A DNA stretch of 64,000 nucleotides from a virus (IMGVR_UViG_3300027823_000001:36096-100095), one strand, 5' to 3'. Positions 12,156 to 39,582 are shown, numbered from the stretch's first letter. Translations and numbers: made by a program. The notes: generated from the letters alone by a model not told the origin.

Positions 12156-12181
12156 AGAAGCCCGCGTGAGTGCCAGACAGG

Positions 12182-12582: not shown

Positions 12583-12591
12583 GTACAGGGC

Positions 12592-13401: not shown

Positions 13402-13406
13402 CCACG

Positions 13407-13419
13407 CATCGTGTATAGT
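13407..13419 (+). promoter_or_regulatory. CATCGnGTA motif (putative promoter)
   Basis: CATCGTGTATAGT in the intergenic gap before the GGAGG RBS. Confidence 0.65.
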
Positions 13420-13437
13420 ATGGTGGAGGTTCCGACC

Positions 13438-16018: not shown

Positions 16019-16068
16019 AAGCAGAGCGCTGTTGCGCGTTCCGGCAAGTGCGCGCACTCTGATGGTGA

Positions 16069-17790: not shown

Positions 17791-17868
17791 CGATGCCACA
17801 CGCGCACGCTACGCTGCGCGCACTACGCAGGTGGGGTCCACCTGCGCAACTGAAAGGAACGGACCATC

Positions 17869-18294: not shown

Positions 18295-18323
18295 TCGCGT
18301 GAACAGGCTCTGACGCGCGACAC

Positions 18324-18333
18324 CATCGCGTAG
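18324..18333 (+). promoter_or_regulatory. CATCGnGTA motif variant
   Basis: CATCGCGTAG, intergenic. Confidence 0.45.
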
Positions 18334-23759: not shown

Positions 23760-25547
23760 ATGGGATTCTTCGACGACATCCGTTCCGGCATCGGTGGCGC
23801 CTTCCGCAACCTCGGCGACTCGCTGGGAGGCGGAGGCTCTGACGTGTCTGCCGAGGACATGCAGAAGGCCATGGCAGGCGCAGGGCTCGCCGCAGACGGA
23901 TCTGGCGGCATGCCCGAGCCGACTGACGAGAAGCCACGCGCTCTCTTCCACGACCCTTACAGCGTCGTCGACTGGGGCGGATGGCGCGAGCGTCCATCGT
24001 CTCTGACGTACGAGACGCTGCGTCAGATGACGCTGAAGAACACCGTGATCGCTGCGCTGATCACGCTGCGCTGCAATCAGGTCGCGCAGTTCGCACGCCC
24101 GCAGCAAGGGAAGTACGATCGCGGCTATCGCGTGATCAAGCGAGACAGGCGCGACCGCTGGAAGAGCATGACGCCCGTCGAGCAGAAGCGGGCGAACGCG
24201 ATCGAGCGGATGATCGAGACCACTGGCATTCTCGGCGACGACGAGCGCGCAGCGGACCGCGACAGCTTCGCGCTTTTCTGCAAGAAGGCCGTGCGCGACA
24301 TCCTCACTTACGACCAGTGGTGCTTCGAGAAGCAGCGCGACCGTCGTGGGATGGTCTCACGCTTCATCGCACTGCCGAGTGAGACGCTGCGCCCCGCAGT
24401 GGCGGATACCGAGCACCTCAGCGCGGAAGACCTGCACTCACGCGTGGCCTACGTGCAGGTCTACGAAGACTCTGTGATCGCCGAGTTCTCTCCCGAGGAT
24501 CTTGCGTGGTGCATCATGAACCCGCGCAGCGATCTGCGCGTGAACGGCTTCGGCTTCTCGCCTGTCGAACAGCTAATGCATCTGGTGACCGCGTGGTTGT
24601 TCGGGTTCGAATACAACCAGCGCTTCTTCTCGCAGGGCTCGGCGATCAAAGGCATCCTGAACATCAAGGGCGCCATTCCCGATCGGCAGCTCCGCGCGTT
24701 CCGACGCATGTGGTACTCCCAGGTGACCGGCGTCACGAACGCGTGGCGCACTCCCATCTTGAACTCCGAAGACATCCAGTGGCAGTCGCTGCATTCGACG
24801 AACCGTGAGATGGAGTTCAGCTCGTGGATGGACTGGCTGACCAAGCTCACATGCGCGGTGTACGGAGCCGATCCCGTCGAGATCAACTTCCAGTTCGGCA
24901 ACACGGGGCAGTCGCATTCCATGAACGAGGGTAAGCAGGAATCGAAGCTCACCGAGTCGAAGGACAAGGGACTGCGCCCGCTGATGGACCACATCACGGA
25001 GAACCTGAATCGTCATCTCGTGTGGGAGATCGAGGAAGACTTCGAGTTCGCGTACGTGGGCCTCGACTCCGGCGATGAGGAGAAGGAGCGTGAAGCGCGT
25101 ATCAAGGAAGTGGGCGCCTACCGCATGGTCGATGAGGTGCGCGCGGATGACGAGCTACCTCCGCTCGCGGACGGCATGGGCCAGTGCGTGAACAATCCGA
25201 CGTGGCTCCAGTTCTCGCAGGCGAAGCAGCAAGAGAAGCAGGCGGCTGATCAGCAGGCCGCTGCCGCCGCAGGTATGGATCCTGGGGCAGCCGCGCCACC
25301 TGGAGGGTCTGCCGGCGGACCGGACGGGTTCGAGGGCACAGACGACGACGATGGCGCGCCAGAGCCGCCTGATGAGGAAGAGCTGCAAGCGGGTGACGTG
25401 GACGACGAGATGCCCCCTGAGGCACAGCTCGAACGTGCCATGCGCAACGTGCGCGATGTGGATCGCCTGCTGAAGAGCGTGTCTCGCCGCAAGTCGCGAG
25501 GTAGGATGCTGATCGAAGTCGATCTGGACGAAGGAGACCTGCGATGA
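23760..25547 (+). CDS. portal protein
   Basis: NPRSD...GFGFSPVE, YNQRFFSQG..KGIL, REMEFSSW, CAVYGADPVEINF, SKDKGLRPL (Herelleviridae-like portal). Confidence 0.93.
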   Translation: MGFFDDIRSGIGGAFRNLGDSLGGGGSDVSAEDMQKAMAGAGLAADGSGGMPEPTDEKPRALFHDPYSVVDWGGWRERPSSLTYETLRQMTLKNTVIAALITLRCNQVAQFARPQQGKYDRGYRVIKRDRRDRWKSMTPVEQKRANAIERMIETTGILGDDERAADRDSFALFCKKAVRDILTYDQWCFEKQRDRRGMVSRFIALPSETLRPAVADTEHLSAEDLHSRVAYVQVYEDSVIAEFSPEDLAWCIMNPRSDLRVNGFGFSPVEQLMHLVTAWLFGFEYNQRFFSQGSAIKGILNIKGAIPDRQLRAFRRMWYSQVTGVTNAWRTPILNSEDIQWQSLHSTNREMEFSSWMDWLTKLTCAVYGADPVEINFQFGNTGQSHSMNEGKQESKLTESKDKGLRPLMDHITENLNRHLVWEIEEDFEFAYVGLDSGDEEKEREARIKEVGAYRMVDEVRADDELPPLADGMGQCVNNPTWLQFSQAKQQEKQAADQQAAAAAGMDPGAAAPPGGSAGGPDGFEGTDDDDGAPEPPDEEELQAGDVDDEMPPEAQLERAMRNVRDVDRLLKSVSRRKSRGRMLIEVDLDEGDLR

Positions 25548-25960: not shown

Positions 25961-27775
25961 GTGAACGAACCCAACGAGCACAAGCCTGGATGTGAGCCAG
26001 GGTGCGAGCACGATCACTCAGCGGGTCGTGCGCGGGTACGCATCGACGCGCCTGAAGGCACTGACCCGCTGTTGCTCGCGCAGGTCGTGCTTGGTCGGCA
26101 GTGGTTGGTGAAGGCGGAGCGCCGAGAGAGCGACAACCCGTTCGAGGTGCACAAGCCGCTTGGTGAGATGTACGATCTCGCCGTTGGTGAGTACCGCGCG
26201 CAGTACACGCGCATGCTCGCGCGCATCGATCGTTACGTCGCGCGGCACACGACGTTGACCAAGGCGACGCGCCAGCGCGCGCTGTTCACGGTGACACAGC
26301 TTCAGGAGCTGGCGCAGATCATCCGCGACCACCACACGGCGATCGCAATCGGCTTCTTCGGTGAGACGAGCGTGCCTCCCGCTGAAGTGCAGCGACTCGT
26401 TGCGATGAACATTCTCCCCAAGGCTGCGCTTGGGATCATCGACGACGCGTTCGCGTACGGGCAGCTGCTCGCAGCTATCAACGCGCAAGTGGAGCGCGGC
26501 GTCACGCGCATCCCCGAGATGACTCTGACCAACATCAAGAAACGCTTGAAGTCACGCCCGCTGCCACTCACCACAGGTGAGGAGATGGCGCGTGAGTGGG
26601 CACGTCAGAGCGCAGCCACGCACGTTCGCGGGCTCGGCAACCGCGTCGCTCACGACTTCGAGACAACGGCGATCGAAGCAGACCGCGCGTTGCAGCAACG
26701 GATGCAGAACGCAATACGAGAGACGCTCGACGCGAACATCGAGCGCGCCGAGACGTGGCGCAAGCTCAAGAGCGACCTCGGACACAAGACCGACGACTGG
26801 GCTCGCGACTTCGGGCGGATCGCCGCGACTGAGAAGACGCGAGCGATGCAGGAGGGGCAGGTGCAAGCGCTGGTCAAGCGCGAAGGCGACCCGAAGCACG
26901 TGCTCGTCGCGAAGATCCCGACGCCCGCTGCGTGTGACCACTGCGTGCGCCTGCATCTCACATCAGGCGTAGGCTCACGCCCCCGCGTCTTCCGGCTCGC
27001 TGACTTGCAGTCGAACGGCTCGAACGTAGGGCGCAAAGCGCGTGAGTGGAAAGCCGTTGTCGGGCCCACGCATCCGTGGTGCGAGTGCGCGTTGGTGCAT
27101 GTACCGGAGGGCTGGGGCTTCGACTCGACAGGCAACCTCGTACCCAAGCGCGCGCGCAAGTCGTGGACGCTGGACCACGATCTGAGCAAGGCGCTCTCCT
27201 ACGGTGACTCGGTGCCCGAAGCGCTCACGGTGCGCGTCGGCGATCCTGAACGCCTCGCGGTGATCGATGATGTGATCGCGCGGACACCGAAGACACTGTT
27301 CACGCGCAAGACGGGCGTCACGCTCATCACCACCGATCACCCGACGCAGAACTCACACCTCGACGATCACGACTTCGCGTACTGGACAGGTAACGAGATC
27401 CGCTTGATGCAAAACCTCCCGCTGGAGAAGCTGAGGGCAGTGCTCGAACACGAGATCGGGCACACGCCGAACGTCTATCTGTTCCACAGGTTCGGCAGCA
27501 TCGCGAAGGTGCGCGCGTGGCACGAGCATCTCTTCAAGATCGGCAACGAAGAGGGTCACGTCAGCGACTATGCATCGAAGCTCGCGATCGAGTGCGCTGC
27601 TGAGGTCACGAGGATGTACCTCTACGACCGCGCAAACCTCATGTTGAACTTCCCGCGGCAGTTCACGTGGGTCCATCGCTACTACAAGCCGCTCATCCGA
27701 CGCGTCTCGCAGCGCACGATGCCGAACCCCGCAGCGACGCAGCTACTACCCAAGCAAGCGAGGCTCGACCAATGA
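25961..27775 (+). CDS. MuF-like head morphogenesis protein fused to a zincin metallopeptidase
   Basis: RIAATE, ACDHC and HPWCEC (MuF); then LSKA; then HEIGH...SDYA...E.AAE. Confidence 0.8.
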   Translation: MNEPNEHKPGCEPGCEHDHSAGRARVRIDAPEGTDPLLLAQVVLGRQWLVKAERRESDNPFEVHKPLGEMYDLAVGEYRAQYTRMLARIDRYVARHTTLTKATRQRALFTVTQLQELAQIIRDHHTAIAIGFFGETSVPPAEVQRLVAMNILPKAALGIIDDAFAYGQLLAAINAQVERGVTRIPEMTLTNIKKRLKSRPLPLTTGEEMAREWARQSAATHVRGLGNRVAHDFETTAIEADRALQQRMQNAIRETLDANIERAETWRKLKSDLGHKTDDWARDFGRIAATEKTRAMQEGQVQALVKREGDPKHVLVAKIPTPAACDHCVRLHLTSGVGSRPRVFRLADLQSNGSNVGRKAREWKAVVGPTHPWCECALVHVPEGWGFDSTGNLVPKRARKSWTLDHDLSKALSYGDSVPEALTVRVGDPERLAVIDDVIARTPKTLFTRKTGVTLITTDHPTQNSHLDDHDFAYWTGNEIRLMQNLPLEKLRAVLEHEIGHTPNVYLFHRFGSIAKVRAWHEHLFKIGNEEGHVSDYASKLAIECAAEVTRMYLYDRANLMLNFPRQFTWVHRYYKPLIRRVSQRTMPNPAATQLLPKQARLDQ

Positions 27776-30700
27776 GGTACATCATTCCTGAGCTGGCCAA
27801 AGCAGCTCGCAAGCTGCACGGGCGCTGCGAAGTGCACGGCATGCAGATCAGCATCGAGAACGCGAAGGGCTCGACGCGACACTGGTACGACGAGCACGAC
27901 AACGAGACGGGCTCGACGCTCATGTCCAACGACTACGGCTACATCCGCGGCACGCTCGGCATCGATGCCAATCACGTCGATGCCTACGTCGGTCCGTACC
28001 CTGAGAGTACGACCGTCTTCATCGTGACTCAGATGCGGAAGCCCGACTTCTCGGAGGTCGATGAACAGAAAGTCATGCTCGGCTTCCACAGCGCGAAGAA
28101 GGCGAAGGCCGCATACCTCGCGCACTACGACGACGCGCGCTTCTTCGGCAGCATGAAGGCGATGAACGTTCAAGCGTTCAAGCGGAAGGTGTTCGACAGG
28201 AACAACCACGGCGGCCTCGTGAAGGCCGTCTCCCACAAGTACACCTCCAAGAAGGCTGACGGTAAGGGAGGCTGGACCTACGAGTACGCTCCAGGCTCGC
28301 GCGAGCACGTGAGCGCTGCAATGGACGCGATCGAGGCGAAGCACGGCGTGTCGTTGAGCGTGGGCCATCATCAAGGCGATGTGCTGACGCTCTCCAAGGT
28401 CGTCGTTCCGAAAGAGCTGCGCAGTACAGGCATCGGATCGAAGGTCATGCAGGAGCTGCACGAGTACGCCGACAAGCACGGCAAGACTGTCGCGCTCACA
28501 CCATCGTCAGACTTCGGAGGCAGCAAGGCGCGCCTTCGCGAGTTCTACAAGAGGCACGGTTACGTGGACAACAAGGGACGCAACAAAGACTTCGCGATCA
28601 GCGACGCGATGTATCGACCTCTCGCGAAAGCACGCATGACCATCGGCGCGCTCGCGTTGTTCTCCAAAGCCAACATGCCTCCCGGTAGTGGCTGGACCGC
28701 GATCCCCGGAGGCAAACGCGGCGGCTACCGCAAGCGCAAAGGTGCAGGCTGGGACTACTGGTATCCCGATGGCCACACCCACGAGGCCTCGCCGCCGAAG
28801 TACAGCGATGCCGACTTCAGCAACGGCGCGTTCGACAAGGATGCGACGCACTGGAAGTGGAAGCAGACCAACGGCGAGCTGAAGGCGTGGACCGCAGGGG
28901 GCATCGACCCTCAGTCACACGCCCCCGTGAAGACAGGCGGGCGCTTCGCGAAGCTCTACCAGATCCACGTTGCAGAAGACCCGAAGCACCCTGGCTTCGC
29001 GGTGCTTAAGGACGTGACGACGGGCGAGCTGACCATGATGCAGCACAACCGCATCTACCCCGTCGAGTATGGTCTGCCGAGCAAGCGGGTCCAGGCGCCT
29101 CCAGAGGGCCCCAAGGCGCCGTGGGTGCCTGGTACGTCAGGCGCAACCGTGAGGCCGTCCAGCGGGCGCGCAGCGGCCGGCAAGAGGGCTCCTGTGTTCG
29201 AGGGCTCGCGGGCGAACGAAGGAACTGGCCTGCACGCGATCGAGACCGGCGTCTATCCGATGGCATCGATCGAGCGCTGGGAGATGCAGGAGGACGGCAC
29301 CAAGAAGAAGATCAAGCTGGAAGCGATCGGCGTGCCCGACCACGGCAAGAACCTGCTGGTGAAAGAGTTCGAGCCGTTGATCGCAGGCACGGCCAAAACC
29401 ATCGCGAAGAAGTACGCACTTCAGATGCAGTACGAACGTGGCACCCGCGGGCAACACTCGACGAACGTCACGCTCGCAGAGCTTCAGCGCGCAGGTATCG
29501 AAGGCATGCTGGACGCGATCGAGCGCTACGACGCGAAGGGACCGTTCGCTTCGCACGCGAGGCAGTTCGTGACCGATCACATCAGACTCGCAGCTGCGCG
29601 CGAACGACTCGGCGGTGTGACTCTGCCTATGCGGCACCAGCGCAACCTCGGGCGGTACATCGCAGCACGCGCACAAGCGTCGAAGGACCTCGGTGTGGAT
29701 GACCCGTCACCCGATCAGGTGGCGCCGTACTTCAGGCTGCTCAAGAGGCACCTGCATCCTCAGCTCTCAGGCGCGCAGGCCAACGAAGCGGTGCCTGCGT
29801 CCGCCTACAAGATCGCAGCCGCGCACGAGGGTACGCCTGGAGCCGTGAAGCGCTCGACGGGTGAGCGCACTGGCGATCAGCCCGCACACGTTCAGCGGGA
29901 CACGATCACGCATCCCGGCAAGCTCGAATGGACCCACCTCTACGACTCGTTCCTCAAGGGGCAGTCGAGCGCGAGCGAGCTGTTCGATGAGGACAAGTTC
30001 GCGCTGCCTGGTCTCGGCATGGGTCTCGGTTACTCACCAGAGGAGCGCGTCGCGATCCGTCAGTCCGTGCAGGTCGCGCTCGACTCGCTCGCGGACTTCT
30101 CGTTCGCCTCGCCGGGTCGAACGAAGGTCACCTACAAGGGCGATGCGGGAGAGATGCTGACGCTGCGTCTCGGGCTGCGCGGCGACGACGAGATGAGCGT
30201 CGCGCAGATCGCGAGCCAAGTGCCCATCTTCGCGAACGGTAAGCAGCTCGGGCAGCGTGCGGCCGAAGGCGCCGTTGCTGAGATGCTTGAACACGCAGTG
30301 GAGCACGCGCGCGAAGCAACCATCGGTCGCGACGCGAAGGTGTTGATGGAGCGCGCAGAAGAGCGCCTCGTTGCGCCTGTCGAGGTTCCCCACGGACCGA
30401 CGTGGCACGAAGTCGTGCGCAAGCGCGCCGATGCGGTGACGCCTCAGCAGGTCGCGGAGTACCGCGGCGCAGAGAAGGCACGCCTCGGTGACTTGCTCTC
30501 GCGTTCGCAAGAGCGCGCAGACCAAGCGCGCGAGAGCGACAAGGCCATGCACGCGCTGTCACTGCGTGGCGCGCAGGAAGCCATGCGCCGCATCGAGCGC
30601 ATGGGCGAGGACGAGATCCGACTCAAGATCGCGCAGCGCCCTTCGCCCGAGACGGCGGAGATGCGGCGGCTCATGACGCAGAGCGTGGCAGTGGACATGC

Positions 30701-31002
30701 CCGCGCCGCGAGGTCGCGAGTACGGACACGCGATGATGACCATGACCGACCTCGGCACGGGCGCGCAGCGCAACGTCAGAGTGCGAACGCTGCGCGACCT
30801 CCGGCACGCAGAGGACCGCGAGTTGGAGAAGTCGGAGCGCGCGAAGTCAGATGCTACGCTCACCACCGGCATGCTCCACGAAGCTATCAACTTCCCCCGC
30901 ACCATGAGGCTGCTCGTAGCCCCTGATGCACAGCTTGCGTCCGCGCCCACGATCGCGCGCCGCACCGTGGAACTTCTCTCAGGGCTCGGAGACGTGCGAT
31001 GA
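27772..31002 (+). CDS. polyvalent protein: InPase-like + GNAT acetyltransferase + sigma70-like domain
   Basis: ISIEN.KGS.R, YGYIRGT and DEQKVMLGF (InPase); VPKELRSTGIGS...LREFYKRHGY (GNAT); IAKKY...ELQRAGIEGMLDAIERYD...F and LRLGL...MSVAQIA (sigma regions 2 and 4); start moved to ATG 27772. Confidence 0.85.
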   Translation: MRYIIPELAKAARKLHGRCEVHGMQISIENAKGSTRHWYDEHDNETGSTLMSNDYGYIRGTLGIDANHVDAYVGPYPESTTVFIVTQMRKPDFSEVDEQKVMLGFHSAKKAKAAYLAHYDDARFFGSMKAMNVQAFKRKVFDRNNHGGLVKAVSHKYTSKKADGKGGWTYEYAPGSREHVSAAMDAIEAKHGVSLSVGHHQGDVLTLSKVVVPKELRSTGIGSKVMQELHEYADKHGKTVALTPSSDFGGSKARLREFYKRHGYVDNKGRNKDFAISDAMYRPLAKARMTIGALALFSKANMPPGSGWTAIPGGKRGGYRKRKGAGWDYWYPDGHTHEASPPKYSDADFSNGAFDKDATHWKWKQTNGELKAWTAGGIDPQSHAPVKTGGRFAKLYQIHVAEDPKHPGFAVLKDVTTGELTMMQHNRIYPVEYGLPSKRVQAPPEGPKAPWVPGTSGATVRPSSGRAAAGKRAPVFEGSRANEGTGLHAIETGVYPMASIERWEMQEDGTKKKIKLEAIGVPDHGKNLLVKEFEPLIAGTAKTIAKKYALQMQYERGTRGQHSTNVTLAELQRAGIEGMLDAIERYDAKGPFASHARQFVTDHIRLAAARERLGGVTLPMRHQRNLGRYIAARAQASKDLGVDDPSPDQVAPYFRLLKRHLHPQLSGAQANEAVPASAYKIAAAHEGTPGAVKRSTGERTGDQPAHVQRDTITHPGKLEWTHLYDSFLKGQSSASELFDEDKFALPGLGMGLGYSPEERVAIRQSVQVALDSLADFSFASPGRTKVTYKGDAGEMLTLRLGLRGDDEMSVAQIASQVPIFANGKQLGQRAAEGAVAEMLEHAVEHAREATIGRDAKVLMERAEERLVAPVEVPHGPTWHEVVRKRADAVTPQQVAEYRGAEKARLGDLLSRSQERADQARESDKAMHALSLRGAQEAMRRIERMGEDEIRLKIAQRPSPETAEMRRLMTQSVAVDMPAPRGREYGHAMMTMTDLGTGAQRNVRVRTLRDLRHAEDRELEKSERAKSDATLTTGMLHEAINFPRTMRLLVAPDAQLASAPTIARRTVELLSGLGDVR

Positions 31003-31319
31003 ACGCAGCAGACGCAGCGAAGCGCATCTATCATGTGGCGCGGCTCGACGATGAGGGTGACGCTACGTTCGCGTTCAACCTCCGCCGTCGCGACGGCGGA
31101 GGCATCGGCCTCTCGAACATCAAGACGCCGTTGAGCGACACGGAGCGCACCGCGCTCTTCTCGCACTTCGGCGTGAAGCTCAAAGTGCGCACGGGCGGCA
31201 CCTCGGGTGATCTCACTTGGGAAGGCGTTGTCGATCGCGAGCCTGGCACCGACGCTCACTTTCTGGCGGCAGCGCACTCGCTGCCCGATCCCTTCTGCCT
31301 CGTCTCCTCGGAGGACTGA
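30999..31319 (+). CDS. hypothetical protein
   Basis: ATGA-coupled; GGAG RBS. Confidence 0.65.
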   Translation: MNAADAAKRIYHVARLDDEGDATFAFNLRRRDGGGIGLSNIKTPLSDTERTALFSHFGVKLKVRTGGTSGDLTWEGVVDREPGTDAHFLAAAHSLPDPFCLVSSED

Positions 31320-31324
31320 CCGCG

Positions 31325-34300
31325 ATGAAGTACGTGATTCCCACTCGGCGACTCGGCGTCACCGAAGACGTGCTTGAGAAGGCCCACGCTCAGGGCTTCA
31401 ATCGGGCCACGGGCGGCAGCTCCGGCGCGCACAAGTACATCAAGAGGGAGTTCCTTGGCTTCCTCAACGGTCGGGTGCGCTACCGCTACTGGTACGCGGA
31501 CGACGTGCAGCGCGAGCGAGGGTCGAAGGCGGTCGAAGGCACCGCCGAGAGCGTCACGACTTCGCATCACGAGCATGAACTGCTCGGCAACATCCACAAG
31601 CTCTTCAAGAACCTCGCGAAGAATCGAGTGAAGGCGAGCGAGGTTACGGAGGAGTCTCTCTCTCGTGCGCTCGGTTGGGATGGCGCGAAGGTGCATCTGC
31701 ATCCTGACTTCCTGCGCAAGTACCACGCGCCGTTCGTGGCGAAAGAAAAAGAAGACGCGGACGCGGAGCCTGATCGCTTCGCGCTCGCGCGTGTCTACCG
31801 CGCGTTCCAGATGATCCCCGAGCCGATGCGCGCGCTGATCGGGGACGATCAGCTCATGAACCTCGTGATCACGACGCGCAGTGATCCTGATGAGGTCGAG
31901 CTGGCTCGCGATCGAGGATGGGACGAACCTCCCGCAGGCTGGTCGAGCGGCACGAAGGGTGAAGTGCATCTGCTCGGCGATGGCGAGCCTGGCTTCGGTG
32001 AAGGCCGTGGCTTCACTGCCGCACCCGTCGGCCGCCCACGCTTCGGTTCACGCTTCACCTGGACCGAAGAAGTGGTGTGGCATGAACTCGGGCATCAGCT
32101 ACACGACAAGCTGATCGGCGAGAAGAGCCCCATCTGGGACGAGTGGAAGGCCCTCTCGCTCAAAGACCCTCAGCGCATCTCCGACTACGCGTTCACCAAC
32201 GAGAAGGAGGACTGGGCCGAATCCGTTGCGTGCATGATCTCGCGACCGAAGCAGATGGCGAGGCAGTGCCCCGCTCGCTACGAGTTCTTCCGCAAGCACG
32301 GCCTCATTCCCGGACCAGCACTCAATCGGATGCTCAAGGTGCCCGAAGAGGAGGGGCGCTGGTGGGACCTGAAGGACACGCCGAAGGCTGCGAAGATCAT
32401 CGGCGAGCAACGCGAGGCAGATGGTCAGCCGAGCTACGTCGGCGCGTACCGCAGCGAGAAGGATCAGTTCTACACCGTGCACTACAAGGGGCGCGCGGTG
32501 TTCTTCCGCCTCGGACCTCCCGACAAGGAAACGGAGATGCAGGGCTGGGATGAGATCCCGCCGACGATCGATCCTGAGACGCAGCTGCCTGTCTACGACA
32601 CGCAGGTCGCAAACCGCTTCCGCGCGCAGGACATCTACAAAGAGATCTACGACGATCGCGGGAACGCGCTGACGCCGCAGCAAGCGCTGCTTTTCCTTCG
32701 CCAAGACGACGAAGACTTCAACGCGAAGATCCCCGACGACCACATGTCGTGGGAGCCGTCCGAGATGGACACGCATCTCGGACGTGTGCTCTTCTCCAAG
32801 CTCGGTGAGAATCGAGGCGAGCAGTCGAAGGAGCGCGAGCGCGTCGCCAAGCTGCGCGCCAAGGGCTCCGATCCCGGAGAGGAGCGCCACGCTTGGGCAC
32901 CGCTGGCGATGTCGCAGTCGGAGTTCGAGGCACTCACTCCCACGTTCAAGTTCAACGAGATCCGCAAGGCCGCAGAGCAGCCGCTGCTCAAGCGTGCGTA
33001 CGACCGCAAACTCAAGCGCCCCGTCACGGTCACTGCGCACAACCCCATCACAGGCAAGGTGGAGCCTGTTCGTTCGGCGACGATCTACGAGACGCAGAAT
33101 CCCGATGGAACCAAGACCAAGATCACGGTGAACGAGTCAGAGCCCTTCGTGCCCAGCGGCACGATGCTCGTGCCCGTGACTGCTACGCGCCGCGAGACCT
33201 CCGGTGTGGAGACGGTGGAGCAGCACTGGGTGAAGTACCGTATCCAGCCCGACGGCAAGCTCACGCCCGAAGAGAAGCCGTGGGAGTGGCAGCCCAAGAA
33301 GAACGGGCGCGGCATGAAGAAGGTCGCGACGGGTACGTGGCCAGAGATGCGATGGGATCGCTTGGAGCCCGCAAAGCTCGCGCGCGATCTCGGGACCACG
33401 GCGGAGATGCTGCTGCATCGCAATGGCAAGGTGGAGTCGGGACAGATACTCGATCCCATGCTCGCGAAGCTGATCAATCCGCTCGGTGAGCGCATCCGAT
33501 CCGAAGGCGATCTCGTGCGCCTCATGCGCGAGGCTGCGAAGGGGCAGGCCAGCACTTGGGTCACCGTGCAGACGGGCACGGATAAGCATCCGAGCTACGC
33601 GCACATGAAGCTCACGTTCGACGGCGGTGGTAACCCACTACTCGCGGGTGAGTATTGGAATCGCATCCTCGGCGTCGAGCAAGCGCGCGTCGATTCGCTG
33701 CTCGATGCGAAGAACCTCTTGAGCGTCGAAGGTGTGCAAGAGGTCATGCCGTTCTTCCACAGCTTCGTACCGAGCGCGCTCGTGAAGTACAAAGATCCGA
33801 CGGCCGAGCGCTGGGTCTACGGTGAGATCGTCGAGGTGAAGGACGCGGGCCGCGATGAGCCTGCGACGTACCGCGTGCAGCCGCTGAAGGGTCAAGGTAC
33901 TGGCCTCACCAAGATGGCTCGTGTGACCACGAAGGACATGGAATCCGCATCGAGCGCTGTCGATCGTGATGACGTGTCTCGCATTCGTCGCGACGTGCAG
34001 CCGATGAAGAACCATCTGCTGCTCTACGGAGACAACCTGCGCTTCGACCAGGACGGCTCGCTGCGCGGCGGCACGGTGCGTCTCAAGCTGCCCAGTGACG
34101 GCACCATCACACCTGATGAGATCCGCCGCTTCCCTGCGGTGCGCTCCGACGAAAACGGTATCTACGTCGATCTGCGGGACATCAACTCTCTACGTGAAGA
34201 GTTCGGCGGCTTCGTGATGGACACGCACGTCCAGACACTGCTCGACGATCTGATGAAGACCGAGAAGCGCAACGCAGAGCGCGCCATGACGAAGGACGTG

Positions 34301-37300
34301 GTGACCACATCACAGATCACGTCGGCTGACGGCGGCGTGAACACTGACGGTCTTCTGAAAGGCCTTCGGCACACGCTCTCGAACGGCGCGCGCTTCAAGC
34401 TCGGCTCGCATCAAGAGGAGTTCCTCAGGGTGTGTGCTCGTGCTGAGGGGCGCACGATGGCTGCTCACTTCATGGGCACAGGCAAGACGATCGCCTCGCT
34501 TGCCGCCATCAAGATGATGAAGAACGCGAAGAAGCCCGACGGCACACCCATCGCAGGCTCTCCGCGCAAGCGCGTCGCGATCGTGGTGCCGCTCAATACA
34601 GCGGTGCAGTGGCAGGTGCAGACTCAGCAGTTCACCGAGAGCGGAGCCACGCTCATCGGCTCCGGCACGCTCGCAGGGGCTGTGCAGGCCTTCTCGCCGA
34701 AGAACTGGCCGCCGCGCAAAGCGGGTGAGGCTGAGGATGTCTACATGGGCCGCGTGAAGCACGCGCGCGACGTGTGGGCAGCCAAGACCGCGGGAGCGTG
34801 GATCCCGGAGAACACGCCGTCTGACGATGTGGTGATCATCCCCTTCGAGTATTTCCGAGACAACGAAGCGGACCTGCGCGCGCACGGTGGCTTCGACGGC
34901 ATCATCATCGACGAAGCGCACGCGATCGCTCGGACCAACGAGCTGTCTCGCGCGGTCGAGCGCTGGAACCCGGGCATGAACATGCTGCTCATGCTCACGG
35001 GCACGCCGATCACGAATCGCCTGAACACCATCCCTCGCTACTTCGACATCCTCACGAACGGCAAGAGCCCTTTCGGTACAGAGGCGGAGTTCTCGCAGCG
35101 CTACCTTCAGCCTAGCGCTGTCATGCTAGCGAACGGCTCGAAGAACCCTCCGAGGACGGATCTCAATCCGCAGCGCGCCGCCGAGCTGGCTTCCTACCTC
35201 TCGACGCGCATGCACATCGCGCTCACTGAGGATGTGAAGGGCAAAACGATGCCCGCGGTGCTGCTCGATGAAAATCAGCCCGCGCACATGGTGGGGATGC
35301 AGGAGAAGGTCTACCGCCTCGCGATGGCGGCCATGAGCGAGACTGAGATGCTTGCCTTGGAAGAGGCTGGCGCACTCGGTACGGATGAGGCTGCCGCGTT
35401 CTCAGGTGGCACGCGCCGCAAGGTGAACGTCGCGCGCTCCTTTGCCAACTCGCCGGGCTACAAGCCTCCTGACCAGCGTGAGTTCGTGACCTTCGTCGAG
35501 AAGGTGGCGAAGAAGAAGGGCAAGACAGGTAAGACCGAGGTCGAGGAGACAGAACGCGTCTTCATGTTGCCGGACTACAAGCGCTGCGTAGGGAAGCCCC
35601 CTCACGGCTTCGGCGGCAAGTGGCCGAGCATGCGTGATGTGGAGAAGGGGCGCATCTCCGACGGTGAATACGAGGTGCTCTCGTTCTACGCGACCACCAT
35701 CCTCGGTGTGGACTACGAGAAGACCCTTGCAGGATCCGAGATCAGCAAAGAGCTGCTCAAAGACATCAAGAAGGGTACGGTGCACGGCGCATCGTGGGGA
35801 AAGATCTCGAACCCCGACTACGGTCCCGAGGGCGCCATCTCGCGTGGCTACCTCGACCTCGACGGCAACCTGAAGCCGATGATCGCGGAGTGGGGAGACG
35901 AGAAGTTCGCGGTGCCCATCGGCACCAAGTTCATCCGCGACCCGTCCAAGAAGGCGTCGGGCCTCTACTACCATCAGGACGACTGGGACTTCACGGGGGC
36001 GTTCTCGGACACAGTGGAGGGCACTGACGACGCTGACGACGATGAGAGCGTCGAGGAAGCGGACGGCGAGAAAAAGAAGAAGGGGCTTCAACAGCAGAAG
36101 GCGAAGAACTCCTCGCTGTCCATTCAGCTCTCTCCGCTTCGGCGCCGCGAGCGCGCTGCGTTCGATGTCTCAATGACGGCGAACAGCGCGAAGGCGGACG
36201 AGCTTGAACGCTACATGACCGAGCGCATGAACCCTGTGACGGGCGGCGACCCCGACTCGCAGTTCATCTTGTTCGGCAACAGGATCGGATCCTCGTGCCG
36301 CGCGATGGAATCGAAGCTGCGCACGCTCGGCATGATGGACATCAACGAAGCGCTCGGACACGAGAAGACCGGCTACTCGTCTGCGGACGACAAGAAGCGA
36401 CATCCGAAGTCGGGCTACTTCGTCACCTACTTCGGCAAGGGTGCGACGCTCGGTGATCGCGACATCAACTCTGAGATCTTCCGCAAGCAAAAGGACGACA
36501 CGGGTCGCGACACGGACACGAGCATGTTCGTGCATCGCACCATGACCGGATCGATCGGACGCCCTCCCGCAGTCGGTACCTTCAGCGAGGGCTGGTCACG
36601 CGCGGAGCGCTCGCGCATCTCCAAGCTGTTCGCAGGTCCGAACGGCGACGGCGGGATCGAAGTCCCGCTGAGGGTGACCGCCCGCATCGTCGGAGACGAG
36701 ACGCGCCCTGCGTTCGTCTACGAAAGCGATCTGAGCGCTGCGGATCGCAAAGCAGTGCAGGAGCTGGAAGCGAAGCGCAATCAAGCACGGTTCGAGGACA
36801 AGACTGCGTTCGAGACGCAGCTCAATGCCATCTTCAGCAAGTACCTGACTGACCGCGCGCCGCTGTCGGATCACCAGATGTGTGTGTTCAACAGCTGCAA
36901 GGTGATGGTCGCCAGCGACGCAGCGCAGGTCGGCCTTAACTGGGGCAATGCGGGCGAGGTCGTCATGTACGACTCGCTGCACTCTCCGATGCAGGAGTGG
37001 CAGCGCATCACGCGCGCAGCCCGGATGCTGGACGCCATCATCCCGGACAACGCGCGCGCCGTGTTCGACAAGCTCGGAGAGCACATCCGCACGTTGGAGC
37101 AGGCGGGCTCGTTCGCGGAGTACGCGAACATGGAGAGCGCTCTCCTAGTTACGCACGAGGCGTGGAACATGCTCGATGAATCCGAGCGTGCACAGGCGCA
37201 AGCCGCGGGCTTCAAGTTCGATCAGGCGACTGAGATGTACTTCGCACAGCGCGCGTTCGCCAAGATCGCGGAGATGCGACCGAAGGTGCGCGACCAGCTG

Positions 37301-38086
37301 CGGCAGCTCGGCCGCGAACTCGAACCCGTCGAGCGCTTGAACCCAGTCACGGAAGAAGTGGAAGTGATCCAGCGCCGCATCAAGGCGGCAGAGATCACGA
37401 GCGCTGACGTGATGAACGAGATCCTTGAGAAGCATCTCACGCCGTTCGAGAAAGAGATCCTCAAGAGCCGCAAGTACCTCGTGAACGTCAAGCGGCTCAC
37501 GACCTCCGTGAACATGCCTGCGTTCAAGACGATCAAGGTACCTGATGGTGAAGGCTTCAAGAAGATCCGAGTGCCCACGGGTGAGATCGTCACTGAGGTG
37601 CCGTGCAAGGCAGAGCTGTCGCCGCTGACGCAGGGCCGCGCCAAGCAGGTGCCCTACGAGTTCTTCATGAAGACGGTGCAGGACGGGGTACCCGCCCAAA
37701 CGGCGTACGACTTCCTTCCCGTCCTACCGCACTCGCTCGCATCGTTCTCGCAGCTGCCGACCGCTCCGCCGCGAGAGCGCAAGCCTGCCGCACAGTCGCC
37801 AGCAGCCCCCGTCGTTCCGCCCAAGCCCGGCAAGATCGTCGAGGCATCGGCGCCGAGCGCTTGGAAGCTCAAGCAGGCAGCGATGGGCGCGCGTTACGAA
37901 GACCAGCGCGCCAAGCGCGCCGCCAAGCTCGCAGTGCAGAAGGTGAAGAACGACGAGCTGTATCAGCAGCGTCTCGCCAAGCAGCGCAAGGAAGCATCGA
38001 AAAAGGCTGCTGCGACGCGTGCCGCAAAGAAGGGGGTCGCGAAGAGCTTCGTGATGCCTCGCGCGCTTTACTTCGGAGGTCGCTGA
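31325..38086 (+). CDS. giant polyvalent protein: zincin metallopeptidase + SNF2-family helicase/translocase
   Basis: HELGH (32081)...SDYA...EDWAE; MGTGKT (34472), IIDEAH (34910), LTGTP, QVGLN, QRITRAAR; GGAGG RBS before ATG 31325. Confidence 0.88.
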   Translation: MKYVIPTRRLGVTEDVLEKAHAQGFNRATGGSSGAHKYIKREFLGFLNGRVRYRYWYADDVQRERGSKAVEGTAESVTTSHHEHELLGNIHKLFKNLAKNRVKASEVTEESLSRALGWDGAKVHLHPDFLRKYHAPFVAKEKEDADAEPDRFALARVYRAFQMIPEPMRALIGDDQLMNLVITTRSDPDEVELARDRGWDEPPAGWSSGTKGEVHLLGDGEPGFGEGRGFTAAPVGRPRFGSRFTWTEEVVWHELGHQLHDKLIGEKSPIWDEWKALSLKDPQRISDYAFTNEKEDWAESVACMISRPKQMARQCPARYEFFRKHGLIPGPALNRMLKVPEEEGRWWDLKDTPKAAKIIGEQREADGQPSYVGAYRSEKDQFYTVHYKGRAVFFRLGPPDKETEMQGWDEIPPTIDPETQLPVYDTQVANRFRAQDIYKEIYDDRGNALTPQQALLFLRQDDEDFNAKIPDDHMSWEPSEMDTHLGRVLFSKLGENRGEQSKERERVAKLRAKGSDPGEERHAWAPLAMSQSEFEALTPTFKFNEIRKAAEQPLLKRAYDRKLKRPVTVTAHNPITGKVEPVRSATIYETQNPDGTKTKITVNESEPFVPSGTMLVPVTATRRETSGVETVEQHWVKYRIQPDGKLTPEEKPWEWQPKKNGRGMKKVATGTWPEMRWDRLEPAKLARDLGTTAEMLLHRNGKVESGQILDPMLAKLINPLGERIRSEGDLVRLMREAAKGQASTWVTVQTGTDKHPSYAHMKLTFDGGGNPLLAGEYWNRILGVEQARVDSLLDAKNLLSVEGVQEVMPFFHSFVPSALVKYKDPTAERWVYGEIVEVKDAGRDEPATYRVQPLKGQGTGLTKMARVTTKDMESASSAVDRDDVSRIRRDVQPMKNHLLLYGDNLRFDQDGSLRGGTVRLKLPSDGTITPDEIRRFPAVRSDENGIYVDLRDINSLREEFGGFVMDTHVQTLLDDLMKTEKRNAERAMTKDVVTTSQITSADGGVNTDGLLKGLRHTLSNGARFKLGSHQEEFLRVCARAEGRTMAAHFMGTGKTIASLAAIKMMKNAKKPDGTPIAGSPRKRVAIVVPLNTAVQWQVQTQQFTESGATLIGSGTLAGAVQAFSPKNWPPRKAGEAEDVYMGRVKHARDVWAAKTAGAWIPENTPSDDVVIIPFEYFRDNEADLRAHGGFDGIIIDEAHAIARTNELSRAVERWNPGMNMLLMLTGTPITNRLNTIPRYFDILTNGKSPFGTEAEFSQRYLQPSAVMLANGSKNPPRTDLNPQRAAELASYLSTRMHIALTEDVKGKTMPAVLLDENQPAHMVGMQEKVYRLAMAAMSETEMLALEEAGALGTDEAAAFSGGTRRKVNVARSFANSPGYKPPDQREFVTFVEKVAKKKGKTGKTEVEETERVFMLPDYKRCVGKPPHGFGGKWPSMRDVEKGRISDGEYEVLSFYATTILGVDYEKTLAGSEISKELLKDIKKGTVHGASWGKISNPDYGPEGAISRGYLDLDGNLKPMIAEWGDEKFAVPIGTKFIRDPSKKASGLYYHQDDWDFTGAFSDTVEGTDDADDDESVEEADGEKKKKGLQQQKAKNSSLSIQLSPLRRRERAAFDVSMTANSAKADELERYMTERMNPVTGGDPDSQFILFGNRIGSSCRAMESKLRTLGMMDINEALGHEKTGYSSADDKKRHPKSGYFVTYFGKGATLGDRDINSEIFRKQKDDTGRDTDTSMFVHRTMTGSIGRPPAVGTFSEGWSRAERSRISKLFAGPNGDGGIEVPLRVTARIVGDETRPAFVYESDLSAADRKAVQELEAKRNQARFEDKTAFETQLNAIFSKYLTDRAPLSDHQMCVFNSCKVMVASDAAQVGLNWGNAGEVVMYDSLHSPMQEWQRITRAARMLDAIIPDNARAVFDKLGEHIRTLEQAGSFAEYANMESALLVTHEAWNMLDESERAQAQAAGFKFDQATEMYFAQRAFAKIAEMRPKVRDQLRQLGRELEPVERLNPVTEEVEVIQRRIKAAEITSADVMNEILEKHLTPFEKEILKSRKYLVNVKRLTTSVNMPAFKTIKVPDGEGFKKIRVPTGEIVTEVPCKAELSPLTQGRAKQVPYEFFMKTVQDGVPAQTAYDFLPVLPHSLASFSQLPTAPPRERKPAAQSPAAPVVPPKPGKIVEASAPSAWKLKQAAMGARYEDQRAKRAAKLAVQKVKNDELYQQRLAKQRKEASKKAAATRAAKKGVAKSFVMPRALYFGGR

Positions 38087-38618: not shown

Positions 38619-38678
38619 CGGTGCGGATGATCATCAGTCATAACTCCGACGTGGCCTAGCTCACTCGGTGAGCAGCAG

Positions 38679-38711
38679 AGGCGCGGACCTGAAAGGGCTC
38701 CGCGCCTTTTT
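38679..38711 (+). terminator. terminator-like hairpin before the protease gene
   Basis: AGGCGCGGA...TCCGCGCCT stem, GAAA loop, TTTTT. Confidence 0.7.
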
Positions 38712-38733
38712 CGTTTCGGAGCAGCAAAAAACG

Positions 38734-39582
38734 ATGGACGGTCTGATCGAAGTGTTCCCTACGCCTCTCTCGCCCACCGGGCGCGGGAACGCGTGGCGCT
38801 TCGAGTTCGACGTAGAGGTCTTCGCCAAGAGCGAAGCGAACGTCCCGACCGAACGGCGCATCGGTGGCATCTGTTCGACTGACCATCTGGATCGCCAAGA
38901 CGAGACCATCATGCAGGAAGGGATGGACTTCAAGCCGTTCCTGCATGACGGGTGGTTCAACGACAACCACGACTCTGCGACCGATGCAATCGTCGGCTAC
39001 CCGATCTCAGCAGAGTACCTCTCGCTCGGCATGCGCAAGGGCTGGCGCGTCGAGGGCTACATGCTCGACGGTCATCCGCGCGCTGACTCGCTCTGGATGC
39101 TCGCGAAGGCGCTTCAGCAAACGAACCGCAAGCTGGGCTTCAGCGTCGAGGGCGGTGTCACCGCTCGCGATCCGAAGAACCCGAAGATCATCCGCAAGGC
39201 AATCGTGCGCGAGGTCGCGATCACGCGGTGCCCCGTCAACACGAGCACGGCGCTGCACATCCTCGCGAAGTCGCTCTCTGCGGGCAGCGCAATGCCTGTA
39301 CCGACCTCGCCTGTGACTGGTGATGGCGCAGGTCGGGTGATCACGCGCCGCAGCGTCGAGGCGAACGCCAACGGCTCAACGAGCCCCGCGATCGAGCGCA
39401 TCAAGCGCCGCAAGAAGCGCCTCTCGGAGATCGAGCAGCATGTGCTCGACAAGGCGCTGCACAACGAGCCCATCAACAGGCTCGAAACGGCAACGCTGCT
39501 TCAGCTGATGGCCCCTGGTCTGACGCTGAGGCAAGCAGAAGGCATCGCCGACTTCCACTTCAAGGGCGTCGCGAGGAAATGA
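38734..39582 (+). CDS. prohead (maturation) protease
   Basis: ST..LDRQDE, WFNDNH, IVGYP, LGFSVEG, VAIT..PVN. Confidence 0.9.
   Translation: MDGLIEVFPTPLSPTGRGNAWRFEFDVEVFAKSEANVPTERRIGGICSTDHLDRQDETIMQEGMDFKPFLHDGWFNDNHDSATDAIVGYPISAEYLSLGMRKGWRVEGYMLDGHPRADSLWMLAKALQQTNRKLGFSVEGGVTARDPKNPKIIRKAIVREVAITRCPVNTSTALHILAKSLSAGSAMPVPTSPVTGDGAGRVITRRSVEANANGSTSPAIERIKRRKKRLSEIEQHVLDKALHNEPINRLETATLLQLMAPGLTLRQAEGIADFHFKGVARK

What the first reader, a model, noticed from the sequence alone, without database searches (positions are those of the whole stretch)
28669..30831. Complete sigma70-like factor hidden in a head polyprotein: probable virion-delivered transcription takeover
The segment 29344-30320 follows RpoD motifs in order. 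Region 2: IAKKY (RpoD IAKKY), ELQRAGIEGMLDAIERYD (DLIQEGNIGLMKAVDKFE), FASHARQFVTDHI (FSTYATWWIRQAI), VTLP (IRIP). Region 3: LGVDDPSPDQVA (MGREPTPEELA). Region 4: EMLTLRLGL...MSVAQIA (VLRMRFGI...TLEEVG). The WW dyad is replaced by QF, implying changed -10 recognition. The domain lies between FSK|A and LEK|S sites, begins with the shared tag, and is encoded between MuF and the protease gene. Phage sigmas are normally standalone middle or late genes; a pre-made, protease-released, injected sigma paired with the CATCGnGTA motif would be an unusual way to start early transcription.
Basis: partly seen in the sequence, partly recalled or inferred. Interest (0 to 1): 0.92.

Follow-up and report, generated by a model that had tools for sequence, protein, structure and literature searches.

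The report
Sigma-factor module inside a phage head polyprotein
A 100-kb freshwater phage carries, inside a large multi-domain protein encoded among its head-assembly genes, a real but very divergent copy of a bacterial sigma factor, which suggests (but does not prove) that the phage ships a ready-made promoter-recognition subunit in its capsid to start its own transcription on arrival.

Summary
ORF 27772-31002 (+, 1076 aa) reads InPase, GNAT, a tag plus a beta-rich domain, a sigma70-like module, a helical region and a C-terminal peptide.

**Sigma homology**
- A family profile hits RpoS in the PDB at E 9e-6 over regions 2.2-3.1, with a weak collinear region-4 hit.
- The AlphaFold2 model (pLDDT 87) matches sigma domain 2 (Z 9-9.7) and sigma domain 4 (Z about 6).
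- Nearly all top Foldseek hits are sigma factors.
- Pfam Sigma70_r2 does not reach threshold on this protein.

**Context**
- The gene order is portal, weak MuF-like gene, this gene, giant SNF2 helicase, prohead protease, capsid protein. Relatives at 43% and 31% identity keep the order portal, unidentified gene, this gene, SNF2 helicase, protease.
- Hydrophobic-x-K|(A/S/G) motifs flank the 721-aa piece. They are conserved across the family and sit in low-confidence linkers, which fits protease processing.
- The family has 76 clusters, all metagenomic. None of 50,697 GenBank phages has it, and the 2017 polyvalent-protein survey never mentions sigma.

**Not shown**
- Packaging, ejection, core-RNAP binding and use of the strand-specific, -35-less CATCGKGTA promoters are all inferred.
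- The phage also encodes a separate ECF-like sigma.

**Verdict:** a new variant of a known kind, of high interest.

The parts
27772..31002 (+). Polyvalent head-module protein gene (1076 aa from ATG 27772). ATGA overlaps join it to the upstream and downstream ORFs.
   Evidence: (database protein P0002 starts at MRYIIP)
27817..28188 (+). InPase domain (polyvalent-protein type inorganic pyrophosphatase)
   Evidence: Pfam PF18823 E 8.5e-35. The same domain is the C-terminus of a solved phage portal, 9b41_L, E 1.6e-26.
28354..28572 (+). GNAT acetyltransferase domain. It is an insertion that the 7 closest homologues lack.
   Evidence: Pfam Acetyltransf_7 E 1.8e-6; alignment A1
28660..28671 (+). FSK|A: predicted prohead-protease site that opens the 721-aa product
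   Evidence: A hydrophobic-x-K-(A/S/G) motif is conserved in 34 of 36 family members at this column. It lies in the low-pLDDT linker 269-300 of the full model.
28690..28767 (+). Gly/Trp/Tyr/Lys tag (GW..IPGG..GG.RKRKG.GW.YWYP), a beta-hairpin. A second copy is in the 918-aa ORF.
28789..29079 (+). Beta-rich middle domain of unknown fold, followed by a disordered linker (29083-29175)
   Evidence: AF2 full-length model; no family hit
29209..29613 (+). Sigma domain 2 (regions 2.1-2.4). A beta-hairpin insert precedes region 2.1 and a loop insert follows IAKKY.
   Evidence: VIA Z 9.0-9.7, e.g. 4x8k_A with 89 aligned at rmsd 2.5; profile vs RpoS E 9.1e-6
29629..29763 (+). Sigma domain 3-like helices (region 3.0 with conserved R-H-x-R-N; region 3.1 DPSPDQVA)
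   Evidence: HMMER alignment to RpoS; family conservation; model helices 146-187
29764..30036 (+). Long linker in the place of region 3.2. It is partly beta, has lower confidence, and carries a conserved acidic stretch (LFDEDKF).
30040..30342 (+). Sigma domain 4 (regions 4.1-4.2) with a beta-hairpin insert and an enlarged turn. The recognition helix is not basic.
   Evidence: VIA 6ono_B Z 6.2 (67 of 69 residues, rmsd 2.3) and 2h27_D Z 6.1 (69 of 69, rmsd 2.8); weak collinear HMMER stretch
30343..30822 (+). Helical / coiled-coil C-terminal region plus a small beta unit; function unknown
30823..30834 (+). LEK|S: predicted protease site that closes the 721-aa product
   Evidence: An x-K-(S/A) motif is conserved in most family members. 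It lies in the low-pLDDT segment 1017-1027.
30832..30999 (+). Conserved 56-aa C-terminal peptide, possibly a targeting or scaffold-binding piece
   Evidence: alignment A1
23760..25547 (+). Portal protein gene (context)
   Evidence: Pfam Phage_portal E 3.9e-19; PHROG 12 E 1.5e-47
25961..27775 (+). 604-aa ORF, weakly MuF / head-morphogenesis-like (context)
   Evidence: PHROG 2468 E 1.9e-4; no Pfam hit
31217..38086 (+). Giant SNF2/ResIII helicase ORF (up to 2289 aa; true start uncertain). It is the conserved downstream neighbour.
38668..39582 (+). Head maturation protease gene (context)
   Evidence: PHROG 1028 E 1.7e-41
40669..42075 (+). Major capsid protein gene, distantly Herelleviridae-like (context)
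   Evidence: PHROG 752 E 3e-82; tblastn 31-34% identity to SPO1/SP-10-type capsid proteins

Best explanation
ORF 27772-31002 encodes a phage 'polyvalent' head protein. Its conserved core is a divergent sigma70-family module (domains 2, 3 and 4, closest to group 2/3 sigmas such as RpoS and FliA).

Shown: the sigma homology and fold; the multi-domain build (InPase, GNAT, sigma-like module); the conserved place between the portal and the prohead protease genes; and conserved hydrophobic-x-K|(A/S/G) motifs in flexible linkers on both sides of a 721-aa piece.

Inferred: the protein is co-assembled into the prohead. The prohead protease cuts it at those motifs. The pieces leave the capsid with the DNA. 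The sigma piece binds host core RNA polymerase and opens the phage's -35-less CATCGKGTA(K)AG promoters, many of which sit 9-10 nt before an ATG (leaderless). The early and replication genes would then be transcribed before any phage protein is made. The InPase and GNAT pieces would be accessory parts of the same takeover kit. The phage's separate ECF-like sigma, itself encoded inside the motif-driven arm, would then serve a later gene class.
For: Sigma homology:
- Family profile vs PDB: RpoS E 9.1e-6 over regions 2.2-3.1, plus a collinear region-4 stretch.
- AF2 model pLDDT 86.9.
- Foldseek top hits are nearly all sigma factors.
- VIA Z 9-9.7 for sigma-2 and about 6 for sigma-4, covering whole target domains.
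- Pfam Sigma70_r2 hits the same region in homologous ORFs at E 5e-4 and 8e-4 and in 1 of 33 members.
- Language-model neighbours include Sigma70_r2 clusters.

Virion link:
- The gene sits in the order terminase, portal, weak MuF-like gene, this gene, SNF2 giant, protease, capsid.
- Relatives at 43% and 31% identity keep the order portal, unidentified gene, this gene, SNF2 giant, protease.
- The InPase type marks packaged polyvalent proteins (PMC5512222) and is part of a solved portal (9b41_L).
- N-terminal domains vary across the family: InPase 20/33, SAM lyase 5, DUF3293 5, Zeta toxin 1.

Processing:
- The K|(A/S/G) site is conserved in 34/36 members, and the C-terminal K|S/A site in most.
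- Both lie in low-pLDDT linkers.

Promoter logic:
- The motif occurs 17 times on + and 0 on -, all in the non-structural arm; 10 copies against 1.3 expected in the window.
- It is shared with the nearest relative.
- It has no conserved -35 and no conserved T at -7, and 6 of 16 sites have an ATG 9-10 nt downstream.
- Only one sigma70-consensus promoter lies on the + strand in about 55 kb.
- No phage RNA polymerase was found among the large ORFs.
- The canonical sigma is ECF-like, lacks domain 3, and its gene lies downstream of motif sites.
- The module keeps a conserved basic R-H-x-R-N stretch in region 3.0 but has a non-basic sigma-4 recognition helix, which fits an extended -10 type, -35-less promoter.
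Against: - No direct evidence exists for packaging, cleavage, ejection or RNA polymerase binding.
- Pfam gathering thresholds are not met, and this protein gets no Pfam sigma hit at all.
- The -10 reading residues differ from sigma70 (Y430 to H, W433/W434 to Q/F). Several region-2.2 core-contact positions also differ, by my own alignment to the output.
- Sigma-4 carries insertions.
- The module is embedded in a 721-aa product with extra domains of unknown role.
- The phage has its own ECF-like sigma that could serve the motif.
- More distant family-bearing contigs (25-41 kb fragments) show no CATCGNGTA copies, so module and motif are not shown to travel together.
- The host is unknown (freshwater metagenome), so 'no host-type promoters' rests on an E. 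coli-type consensus.
Confidence: 0.42

Rival explanations
1. The sigma-like piece is packaged and ejected but acts as a decoy or shut-off factor. It occupies the sigma-binding surface of host core RNA polymerase, or displaces the host sigma, without directing promoter-specific initiation. Alternatively it tethers the incoming DNA end to the polymerase. The CATCGKGTA promoters are served by another factor.
For: The fold and the virion context are as in the main explanation. The -10 reading residues are altered and the sigma-4 helix is non-basic. Distant relatives lack the motif in the fragments available. Polyvalent proteins are mostly anti-host effectors (PMC5512222).
Against: Regions 2.3-2.4 and 3.0, the DNA-facing parts, are among the best conserved stretches of the family, including an invariant Arg and a near-invariant His, Arg and Asn in region 3.0. 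A pure core-binding decoy would not need them. No other early promoter class is visible.
Confidence: 0.2
2. The protein is not delivered to the next host. The sigma-like module works in the producing cell, for example as a late-gene or assembly-coupled transcription factor. Alternatively it has been exapted as a DNA-binding internal head or packaging protein with no role in transcription.
For: The gene lies in the late structural block, which has no CATCGNGTA copies. No late promoter class or late sigma has been assigned. Helical sigma domains are generic DNA and protein binders. The extra beta-domain and coiled coil have no assigned role.
Against: The InPase clade and the variable effector N-termini (SAM lyase, Zeta toxin, GNAT) are typical of ejected polyvalent proteins. 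Conserved protease-type sites flank the module. A late sigma has no need to be fused to such domains. The phage already has a standalone sigma.
Confidence: 0.2
3. The motif promoters are read by the host holoenzyme or by the phage's ECF-like sigma. The sigma-like module is a decayed relic that keeps only the fold.
For: Pfam cut-offs are not met. The W-dyad is lost. Sigma-4 has insertions. The canonical sigma gene is present.
Against: The module is the most conserved part of a family of 76 clusters (77-79% identity among near relatives against 67-73% for the whole protein), which argues for purifying selection on a function. ECF sigmas normally need a -35 element, and the motif has none (established knowledge of ECF promoters). 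The motif lacks the T at -7 that sigma70 needs.
Confidence: 0.13
4. The likeness to sigma is chance or a generic helical arrangement.
For: Foldseek E-values are modest (8e-4 to 3e-2) and TM-scores are low. VIA Z of 9 is within the range that helical models can reach by chance (note).
Against: Sequence profile, fold, domain order (2, 3, 4), motif-level matches and Pfam hits on homologues all agree. The rows listed at Z 8 or above are sigma or sigma-derived chains, apart from one epitope scaffold (3les_A).
Confidence: 0.03

Closest known systems
Bacterial and phage sigma70-family factors of groups 2/3 (RpoS, FliA/WhiG, SigB/F; standalone phage sigmas)
   Same: Collinear domains 2, 3 and 4. The region 2.1 IAKKY, the region 2.2 helix (L-x-x-G-x-x-G-x-L-x-A-I-E-R-Y-D), the 2.3/2.4 helix, the L-P turn plus 3.0 helix, the 3.1 'DPSPEQVA' and the 4.1/4.2 'LGL...IA' are all recognisable.
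   Different: The module is not a standalone gene. It sits inside a 1076-aa head-module protein. It has a beta-hairpin before 2.1, a loop after IAKKY, a roughly 95-aa segment in place of region 3.2, and a hairpin and an enlarged turn in domain 4. The W-dyad is Q-F. It falls below Pfam thresholds. It has no similarity to the phage's own ECF-like sigma.
Polyvalent proteins of phages (Iyer et al. 2017, PMC5512222), including InPase-bearing minor head proteins and P1 DarB-type giants
   Same: Several unrelated effector domains sit in one polypeptide. The gene lies in a head-module neighbourhood. It has InPase and GNAT domains, variable N-terminal cassettes across relatives, and predicted processing.
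   Different: That survey lists N4-type RNA polymerase and protein-modifying enzymes as the means to jump-start transcription. The word 'sigma' does not occur in it. No LPD or other Pfam family covers this module. Processing here seems to use the prohead protease's K|(A/S/G) sites rather than an in-built zincin peptidase.
Virion-delivered transcription machinery: phage N4 vRNAP, phiKZ virion RNAP, T4 Alt
   Same: The proposed logic is the same: a pre-made protein carried in the capsid makes early transcription independent of new protein synthesis (PMC4496689, PMC4666361 and PMC5512222, seen).
   Different: There is no polymerase catalytic domain and no ADP-ribosyltransferase. This system would supply only the specificity subunit and borrow the host core enzyme. 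I found no described precedent in five literature searches. Standalone sigma factors detected in Twort-like virion preparations were judged carry-over by the authors (PMC5618024).

Membership tests
sigma70 family | Domain 2 fold with regions 2.1-2.4 | tested here: met
   VIA Z 9.0-9.7 to sigma-2 structures with 89-105 residues aligned. Profile vs RpoS E 9.1e-6.
sigma70 family | Domain 3 (regions 3.0/3.1) following domain 2 | tested here: met
   The HMMER alignment runs through the L-P turn, the 3.0 helix and 'PSPE..A' of 3.1. The model has three helices at 146-187. No separate structural search of this domain was done.
sigma70 family | Domain 4 helix-turn-helix (regions 4.1/4.2) at the C-terminal end, collinear | tested here: met
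   VIA gives 6ono_B Z 6.2 (67/69 residues) and 2h27_D Z 6.1 (69/69) at model residues 283-383. The sequence signal is weak (i-Evalue 2e+02). The recognition helix is not basic.
sigma70 family | Scores above Pfam/NCBIfam curated cut-offs (Sigma70_r2, r3, r4) | tested here: not met
   No Pfam hit on this protein even at E 10. NCBIfam FliA_WhiG scores 16 bits against a cut-off of 189.6. Homologues score 15 bits against a cut-off of 24.
sigma70 family | Conserved -10 reading residues (Tyr430, Trp433/Trp434 of E. coli sigma70) | tested here: not met
   His, Gln and Phe stand at these positions. Group 3 and 4 sigmas also lack the W-dyad (FliA alignment).
sigma70 family | Binds core RNA polymerase (beta-prime clamp helices, beta flap) and directs promoter-specific initiation | not testable with these tools
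This needs biochemistry.
Phage polyvalent proteins (Iyer 2017) | Several unrelated effector or enzymatic domains in one polypeptide, with cassette-like variation among relatives | tested here: met
   This protein has InPase, GNAT and the sigma-like module. Relatives carry InPase, SAM lyase, DUF3293 or Zeta toxin before the same module.
Phage polyvalent proteins (Iyer 2017) | Encoded in the virion (head) gene neighbourhood | tested here: met
   The gene lies between the portal and the protease/capsid genes. The same order holds in L004 and L006.
Phage polyvalent proteins (Iyer 2017) | Physically packaged in the capsid and transferred with the DNA | not testable with these tools
   This needs virion proteomics and infection assays. 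There is only indirect support: the InPase domain is part of a solved portal and conserved protease-type sites are present.
Virion RNA polymerases (N4 vRNAP type) | RNA polymerase catalytic domain in the packaged protein | tested here: not met
   There are no polymerase families in Pfam or PHROGs for this ORF or for the other large ORFs scanned. The proposed logic is similar, but this is not a member.

The most novel reading that the evidence does not exclude
This would be a virion-delivered sigma factor. The phage packs a protease-released sigma70-like protein in its head and ejects it with the DNA. That protein reprograms host core RNA polymerase onto phage-specific, -35-less, often leaderless promoters. 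Early transcription would then need neither host sigma nor new protein synthesis. This would be a third strategy beside injected polymerases (N4, phiKZ) and injected polymerase-modifying enzymes (T4 Alt), and it is present in a whole uncultured phage lineage (76 protein clusters).
Probability: 0.33. Interest if true: 0.9.

Novelty: new variant of a known kind. Interest (0 to 1): 0.8.

Why it matters
Phage sigma factors are known only as standalone middle or late genes made after infection. Capsid-borne transcription tools are known only as whole polymerases or as modifying enzymes. A sigma module built into a processed head polyprotein would show a new way for a virus to seize host transcription from the first second of infection.

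It would also add a new domain class to the polyvalent-protein repertoire. It would give a compact, testable pair for orthogonal transcription: a specificity subunit and a short -10-only promoter. Finally, it offers a clear test case for how far a sigma can diverge (no W-dyad, a non-basic domain 4) and still work, or for what else the sigma fold can be used.

Tried and rejected
- Single-sequence Pfam on four sub-segments gave no family even at E 10. Only profiles and structure show the homology.
- hhalign of the family profile against the phage's own ECF-like sigma gave no relation (probability 0.2), so the module is not a copy of that gene.
- tblastn of the whole ORF against GenBank phages matched only the InPase/GNAT part. 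tblastn of the sigma-like segment gave no match.
- A scan of 185,579 species genomes found only InPase relatives and gave no host clue. The search for related loci with A2 failed for lack of conserved words.
- There are no tRNA genes in the window.
- Cluster look-up gave no names.
- Complex prediction (sigma-2/3 part with E. coli beta-prime 220-350) was busy twice and then closed, so no verdict on core binding.
- Sequencing runs: one freshwater metagenome holds the stretch and is the likely source. No RNA holder is listed.
- A k-mer search and inspection of late-region gaps found no late promoter motif.
- A VIA search with the 1076-aa model gave only generic helical-hairpin matches for residues 884-958 and nothing for the beta-rich middle domain. 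Those parts remain unassigned rather than shown to be new folds.
- FLKG inside the sigma region was rejected as a processing site because its Lys is not conserved.
Full report
**The record and the gene**

The window is bases 36096-100095 of a 100,095-bp IMG/VR virus record. It was assembled from a freshwater metagenome. All long ORFs lie on the + strand. The 127-bp terminal repeat contains the start of an ORF. I therefore read it as the overlap of a circular assembly, and the physical genome ends are unknown.

The finding lies in one long frame, 27667-31002. The database gene product starts at ATG 27772 and has 1076 aa. That ATG overlaps the stop of the upstream ORF as ATGA. The stop at 31000-31002 overlaps the next ATG in the same way. 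Residue numbers below count from the GTG at 27667.

**Observation**

The given ends, 28669 and 30831, are exactly the residue after FSK (A335) and the Lys of LEK (K1055).

**Is it a sigma factor by descent and fold?**

Single-sequence searches are nearly blind:
- Pfam finds nothing even at E 10.
- NCBIfam gives FliA/WhiG at E 0.0075.
- phmmer against PDB sequences gives FliA at E 0.42.

Relatives settle it. An exhaustive HMMER search of 1.84 billion representative proteins found 76 clusters (58 at E below 1e-10). Most are large multi-domain proteins.

A profile of 33 of them hits RpoS chains at E 9.1e-6. The alignment covers 87 positions from region 2.2 through 2.3/2.4, the L-P turn, the 3.0 helix and the 'PSPE..A' of region 3.1. 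A second, weak stretch falls in region 4.1/4.2 in the right order. SigA and FliA follow down the list.

An AlphaFold2 model of aa 510-928 built on that alignment is confident (pLDDT 86.9, pTM 0.73):
- Foldseek against the PDB returns sigma factors in almost all of the top 50 rows, with alignments of 320-400 columns. TM-scores are low, as expected when a free multi-domain model is laid on the extended holoenzyme-bound form.
- An aligner that does not depend on Foldseek, run over 48,161 representative chains, puts sigma or sigma-derived chains in the listed rows at Z 8 or above, apart from one epitope scaffold. Domain 2 scores Z 9.0-9.7 (for example 4x8k_A, 89 residues at 2.5 A). Domain 4 matches separately at model residues 283-383 (6ono_B Z 6.2, 67 of 69 residues; 2h27_D Z 6.1, 69 of 69).

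Independent hints agree:
- Pfam Sigma70_r2 hits the equivalent place inside the homologous ORFs of two related contigs (E 5e-4 and 8e-4).
- It hits one of 33 members directly.
- Phage sigma factors are the best viral structure matches.
- Language-model neighbours include Sigma70_r2 clusters.

I conclude that the module is a true sigma70-family member by descent, closest to groups 2/3. It is far diverged and does not meet Pfam cut-offs.

**How it differs from ordinary sigmas**

From the model and the family alignment:
- A beta-hairpin precedes region 2.1.
- A loop of about 19 residues follows IAKKY.
- About 95 residues, partly beta and of lower confidence, stand where region 3.2 should be. They include a conserved acidic stretch.
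- Domain 4 has a hairpin between its first helix and 4.1, and an enlarged turn in the helix-turn-helix.
- Tyr430, Trp433 and Trp434 of E. coli sigma70 are His, Gln and Phe here. FliA also has Gln at the first Trp position.
- Region 3.0 carries an invariant Arg and a near-invariant His, Arg and Asn (R-H-x-R-N).
- The domain-4 recognition helix is acidic to neutral.

By inference, promoter reading would rest on domains 2 and 3 rather than on a -35 contact.

**Context**

The neighbourhood is a head module:

| Window position | Gene |
|---|---|
| 16069 | terminase large subunit |
| 23760 | portal |
| 25961 | 604-aa ORF with weak head-morphogenesis/MuF hits |
| 27772 | this gene |
| 30999 | 106-aa ORF |
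| 31217 | SNF2/ResIII helicase giant (up to 2289 aa) |
| 38668 | head maturation protease |
| 40669 | major capsid protein, 31-34% identical to SPO1/SP-10-type capsids |
| 48059 | tail sheath |

The N-terminal InPase (E 8.5e-35) is the type that Iyer et al. tie to packaged polyvalent proteins and find fused to portals (PMC5512222). Consistent with that, the family profile hits the C-terminus of a solved portal chain, 9b41_L, at E 1.6e-26.

Across relatives the sigma-like core is constant while the N-terminal cassette varies: InPase 20 of 33, SAM lyase 5, DUF3293 5, Zeta toxin 1. The GNAT is an insertion that the closest homologues lack.

The order portal, unknown gene, this gene, SNF2 giant, protease is kept in contigs whose homologues are 43% and 31% identical.

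**Processing**

At the column of FSK|A, 34 of 36 family members have hydrophobic-x-K followed by A, S or G. The Pro-Pro-Gly...Gly-Trp tag always follows. At LEK|S most members again have x-K-(S/A) in an otherwise variable stretch. The FLKG inside the sigma region is not conserved.

In the full-length model (pLDDT 76) the low-confidence segments 150-155, 269-300 and 1017-1027 (numbered from ATG 27772) coincide with LVK|A, FSK|A and LEK|S. The same short motif precedes the capsid protein's mature part (LRK|A) and is frequent in the scaffold and the protease.

Cleavage after Lys is known for capsid maturation in A511-type and HK97-type phages. This is my own knowledge and was not checked here. 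Processing into a 721-aa product is therefore a reasonable inference, not a result.

**Promoter logic**

- CATCGNGTA occurs 17 times on the + strand and never on the - strand of the genome. All copies lie between 4.6 and 54.4 kb, the non-structural arm. In the window there are 10 copies against 1.3 expected.
- The nearest relative shares the motif on its gene strand.
- Aligned sites show no conserved -35 and no conserved T at -7. In 6 of 16 sites an ATG lies 9-10 nt after the TA with no Shine-Dalgarno sequence. That is the geometry of a -10 element on a leaderless transcript.
- Only one sigma70-consensus site lies on the + strand in about 55 kb, fewer than in shuffles.
- No phage RNA polymerase was found among the large ORFs.
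- The phage's ordinary sigma (Sigma70_r2 E 1.8e-8) is short and ECF-like at its N-terminus, fused to a long Lys/Pro/Ala-rich tail. Its gene lies downstream of motif sites, and one motif copy lies inside it.

A -35-less promoter with an upstream extension of the -10 suits a sigma with region 3.0 better than an ECF sigma. A sigma encoded behind such promoters cannot start them. This favours either a host factor or a pre-made phage factor. It is an argument, not a test.

More distant family-bearing fragments show no copies of the motif. That result is uninformative because those fragments may hold only structural genes.

**Prior knowledge**

- The polyvalent-protein survey names N4-type polymerase and modifying enzymes as ways to jump-start transcription and never uses the word sigma.
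- Five full-text searches found no report of a sigma domain in a head or polyvalent protein.
- Standalone sigma factors seen by mass spectrometry in Twort-like virion preparations were regarded as carry-over (PMC5618024).
- No GenBank phage among 50,697 has the module.

**Verdict**

The head-polyprotein reading is well supported by context and by conserved linker motifs. Delivery and function as an initiating sigma remain inferred. I put them at about one in three to two in five, with decoy, non-delivered and relic readings as rivals.

Two tools that could have helped were closed: complex prediction and contig look-up by protein.

Noticed in passing
genome 20443-22362 (outside the window, 13.7-15.7 kb before its start; locus L001): The phage's ordinary sigma is a short ECF-like N-terminal part (Sigma70_r2 E 1.8e-8). 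It is fused in frame to a Cys-containing segment, a long Lys/Pro/Ala-rich repeat region and a C-terminal domain. A CATCGTGTA copy followed by GGAGGA and an ATG lies inside the frame at 21028. A 731-aa counterpart exists in the nearest relative.
   Followed up: partly
window 31217-38086: Giant ORF (up to 2289 aa) with an SNF2/ResIII/Helicase_C core. It always lies directly downstream of the sigma-like polyvalent gene in relatives (2512 and 2177 aa). It is probably a second packaged polyvalent protein of the DarB kind. Its real start is uncertain because it overlaps a 106-aa ORF (30999-31319) that starts in an ATGA overlap.
   Followed up: partly
window 2148-18332 and genome 4606-35857: CATCG(G/T)GTA(T/G)AG motif: 17 copies on + and 0 on -, none in the structural arm. 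There is no conserved -35. Six of 16 sites have an ATG 9-10 nt downstream and no Shine-Dalgarno sequence, suggesting leaderless transcripts.
   Followed up: partly
window 21721, 22171, 22648, 28234, 31430 (and 19098, 28690): Short repeated modules, HKY..K..G.GG(W/Y).Y.Y and GW..IP....GG.R....GW.YWYP, recur in four head-module ORFs, mostly a few residues after a K|(A/G) motif. In the model they form beta-hairpins. Their role (targeting, DNA binding) is unknown.
   Followed up: partly
genome ends (1-127 and 99969-100095; window 63874-64000): The 127-bp direct terminal repeat contains the start of an ORF that continues into genome position 7-2616. It therefore looks like an assembler overlap of a circular contig rather than a physical terminal repeat.
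   Followed up: partly
genome 19064-19163 (outside the window): The 10-mer GACACCGAAG recurs seven times at a 15-bp spacing inside the 682-aa ORF just upstream of the ECF-like sigma gene.
   Followed up: no
window 40774-40926 (-): Weak Sigma70_r2 match (E 0.003, 14 bits) on the strand opposite the capsid gene, in a 130-aa frame. It is most likely chance.
   Followed up: no
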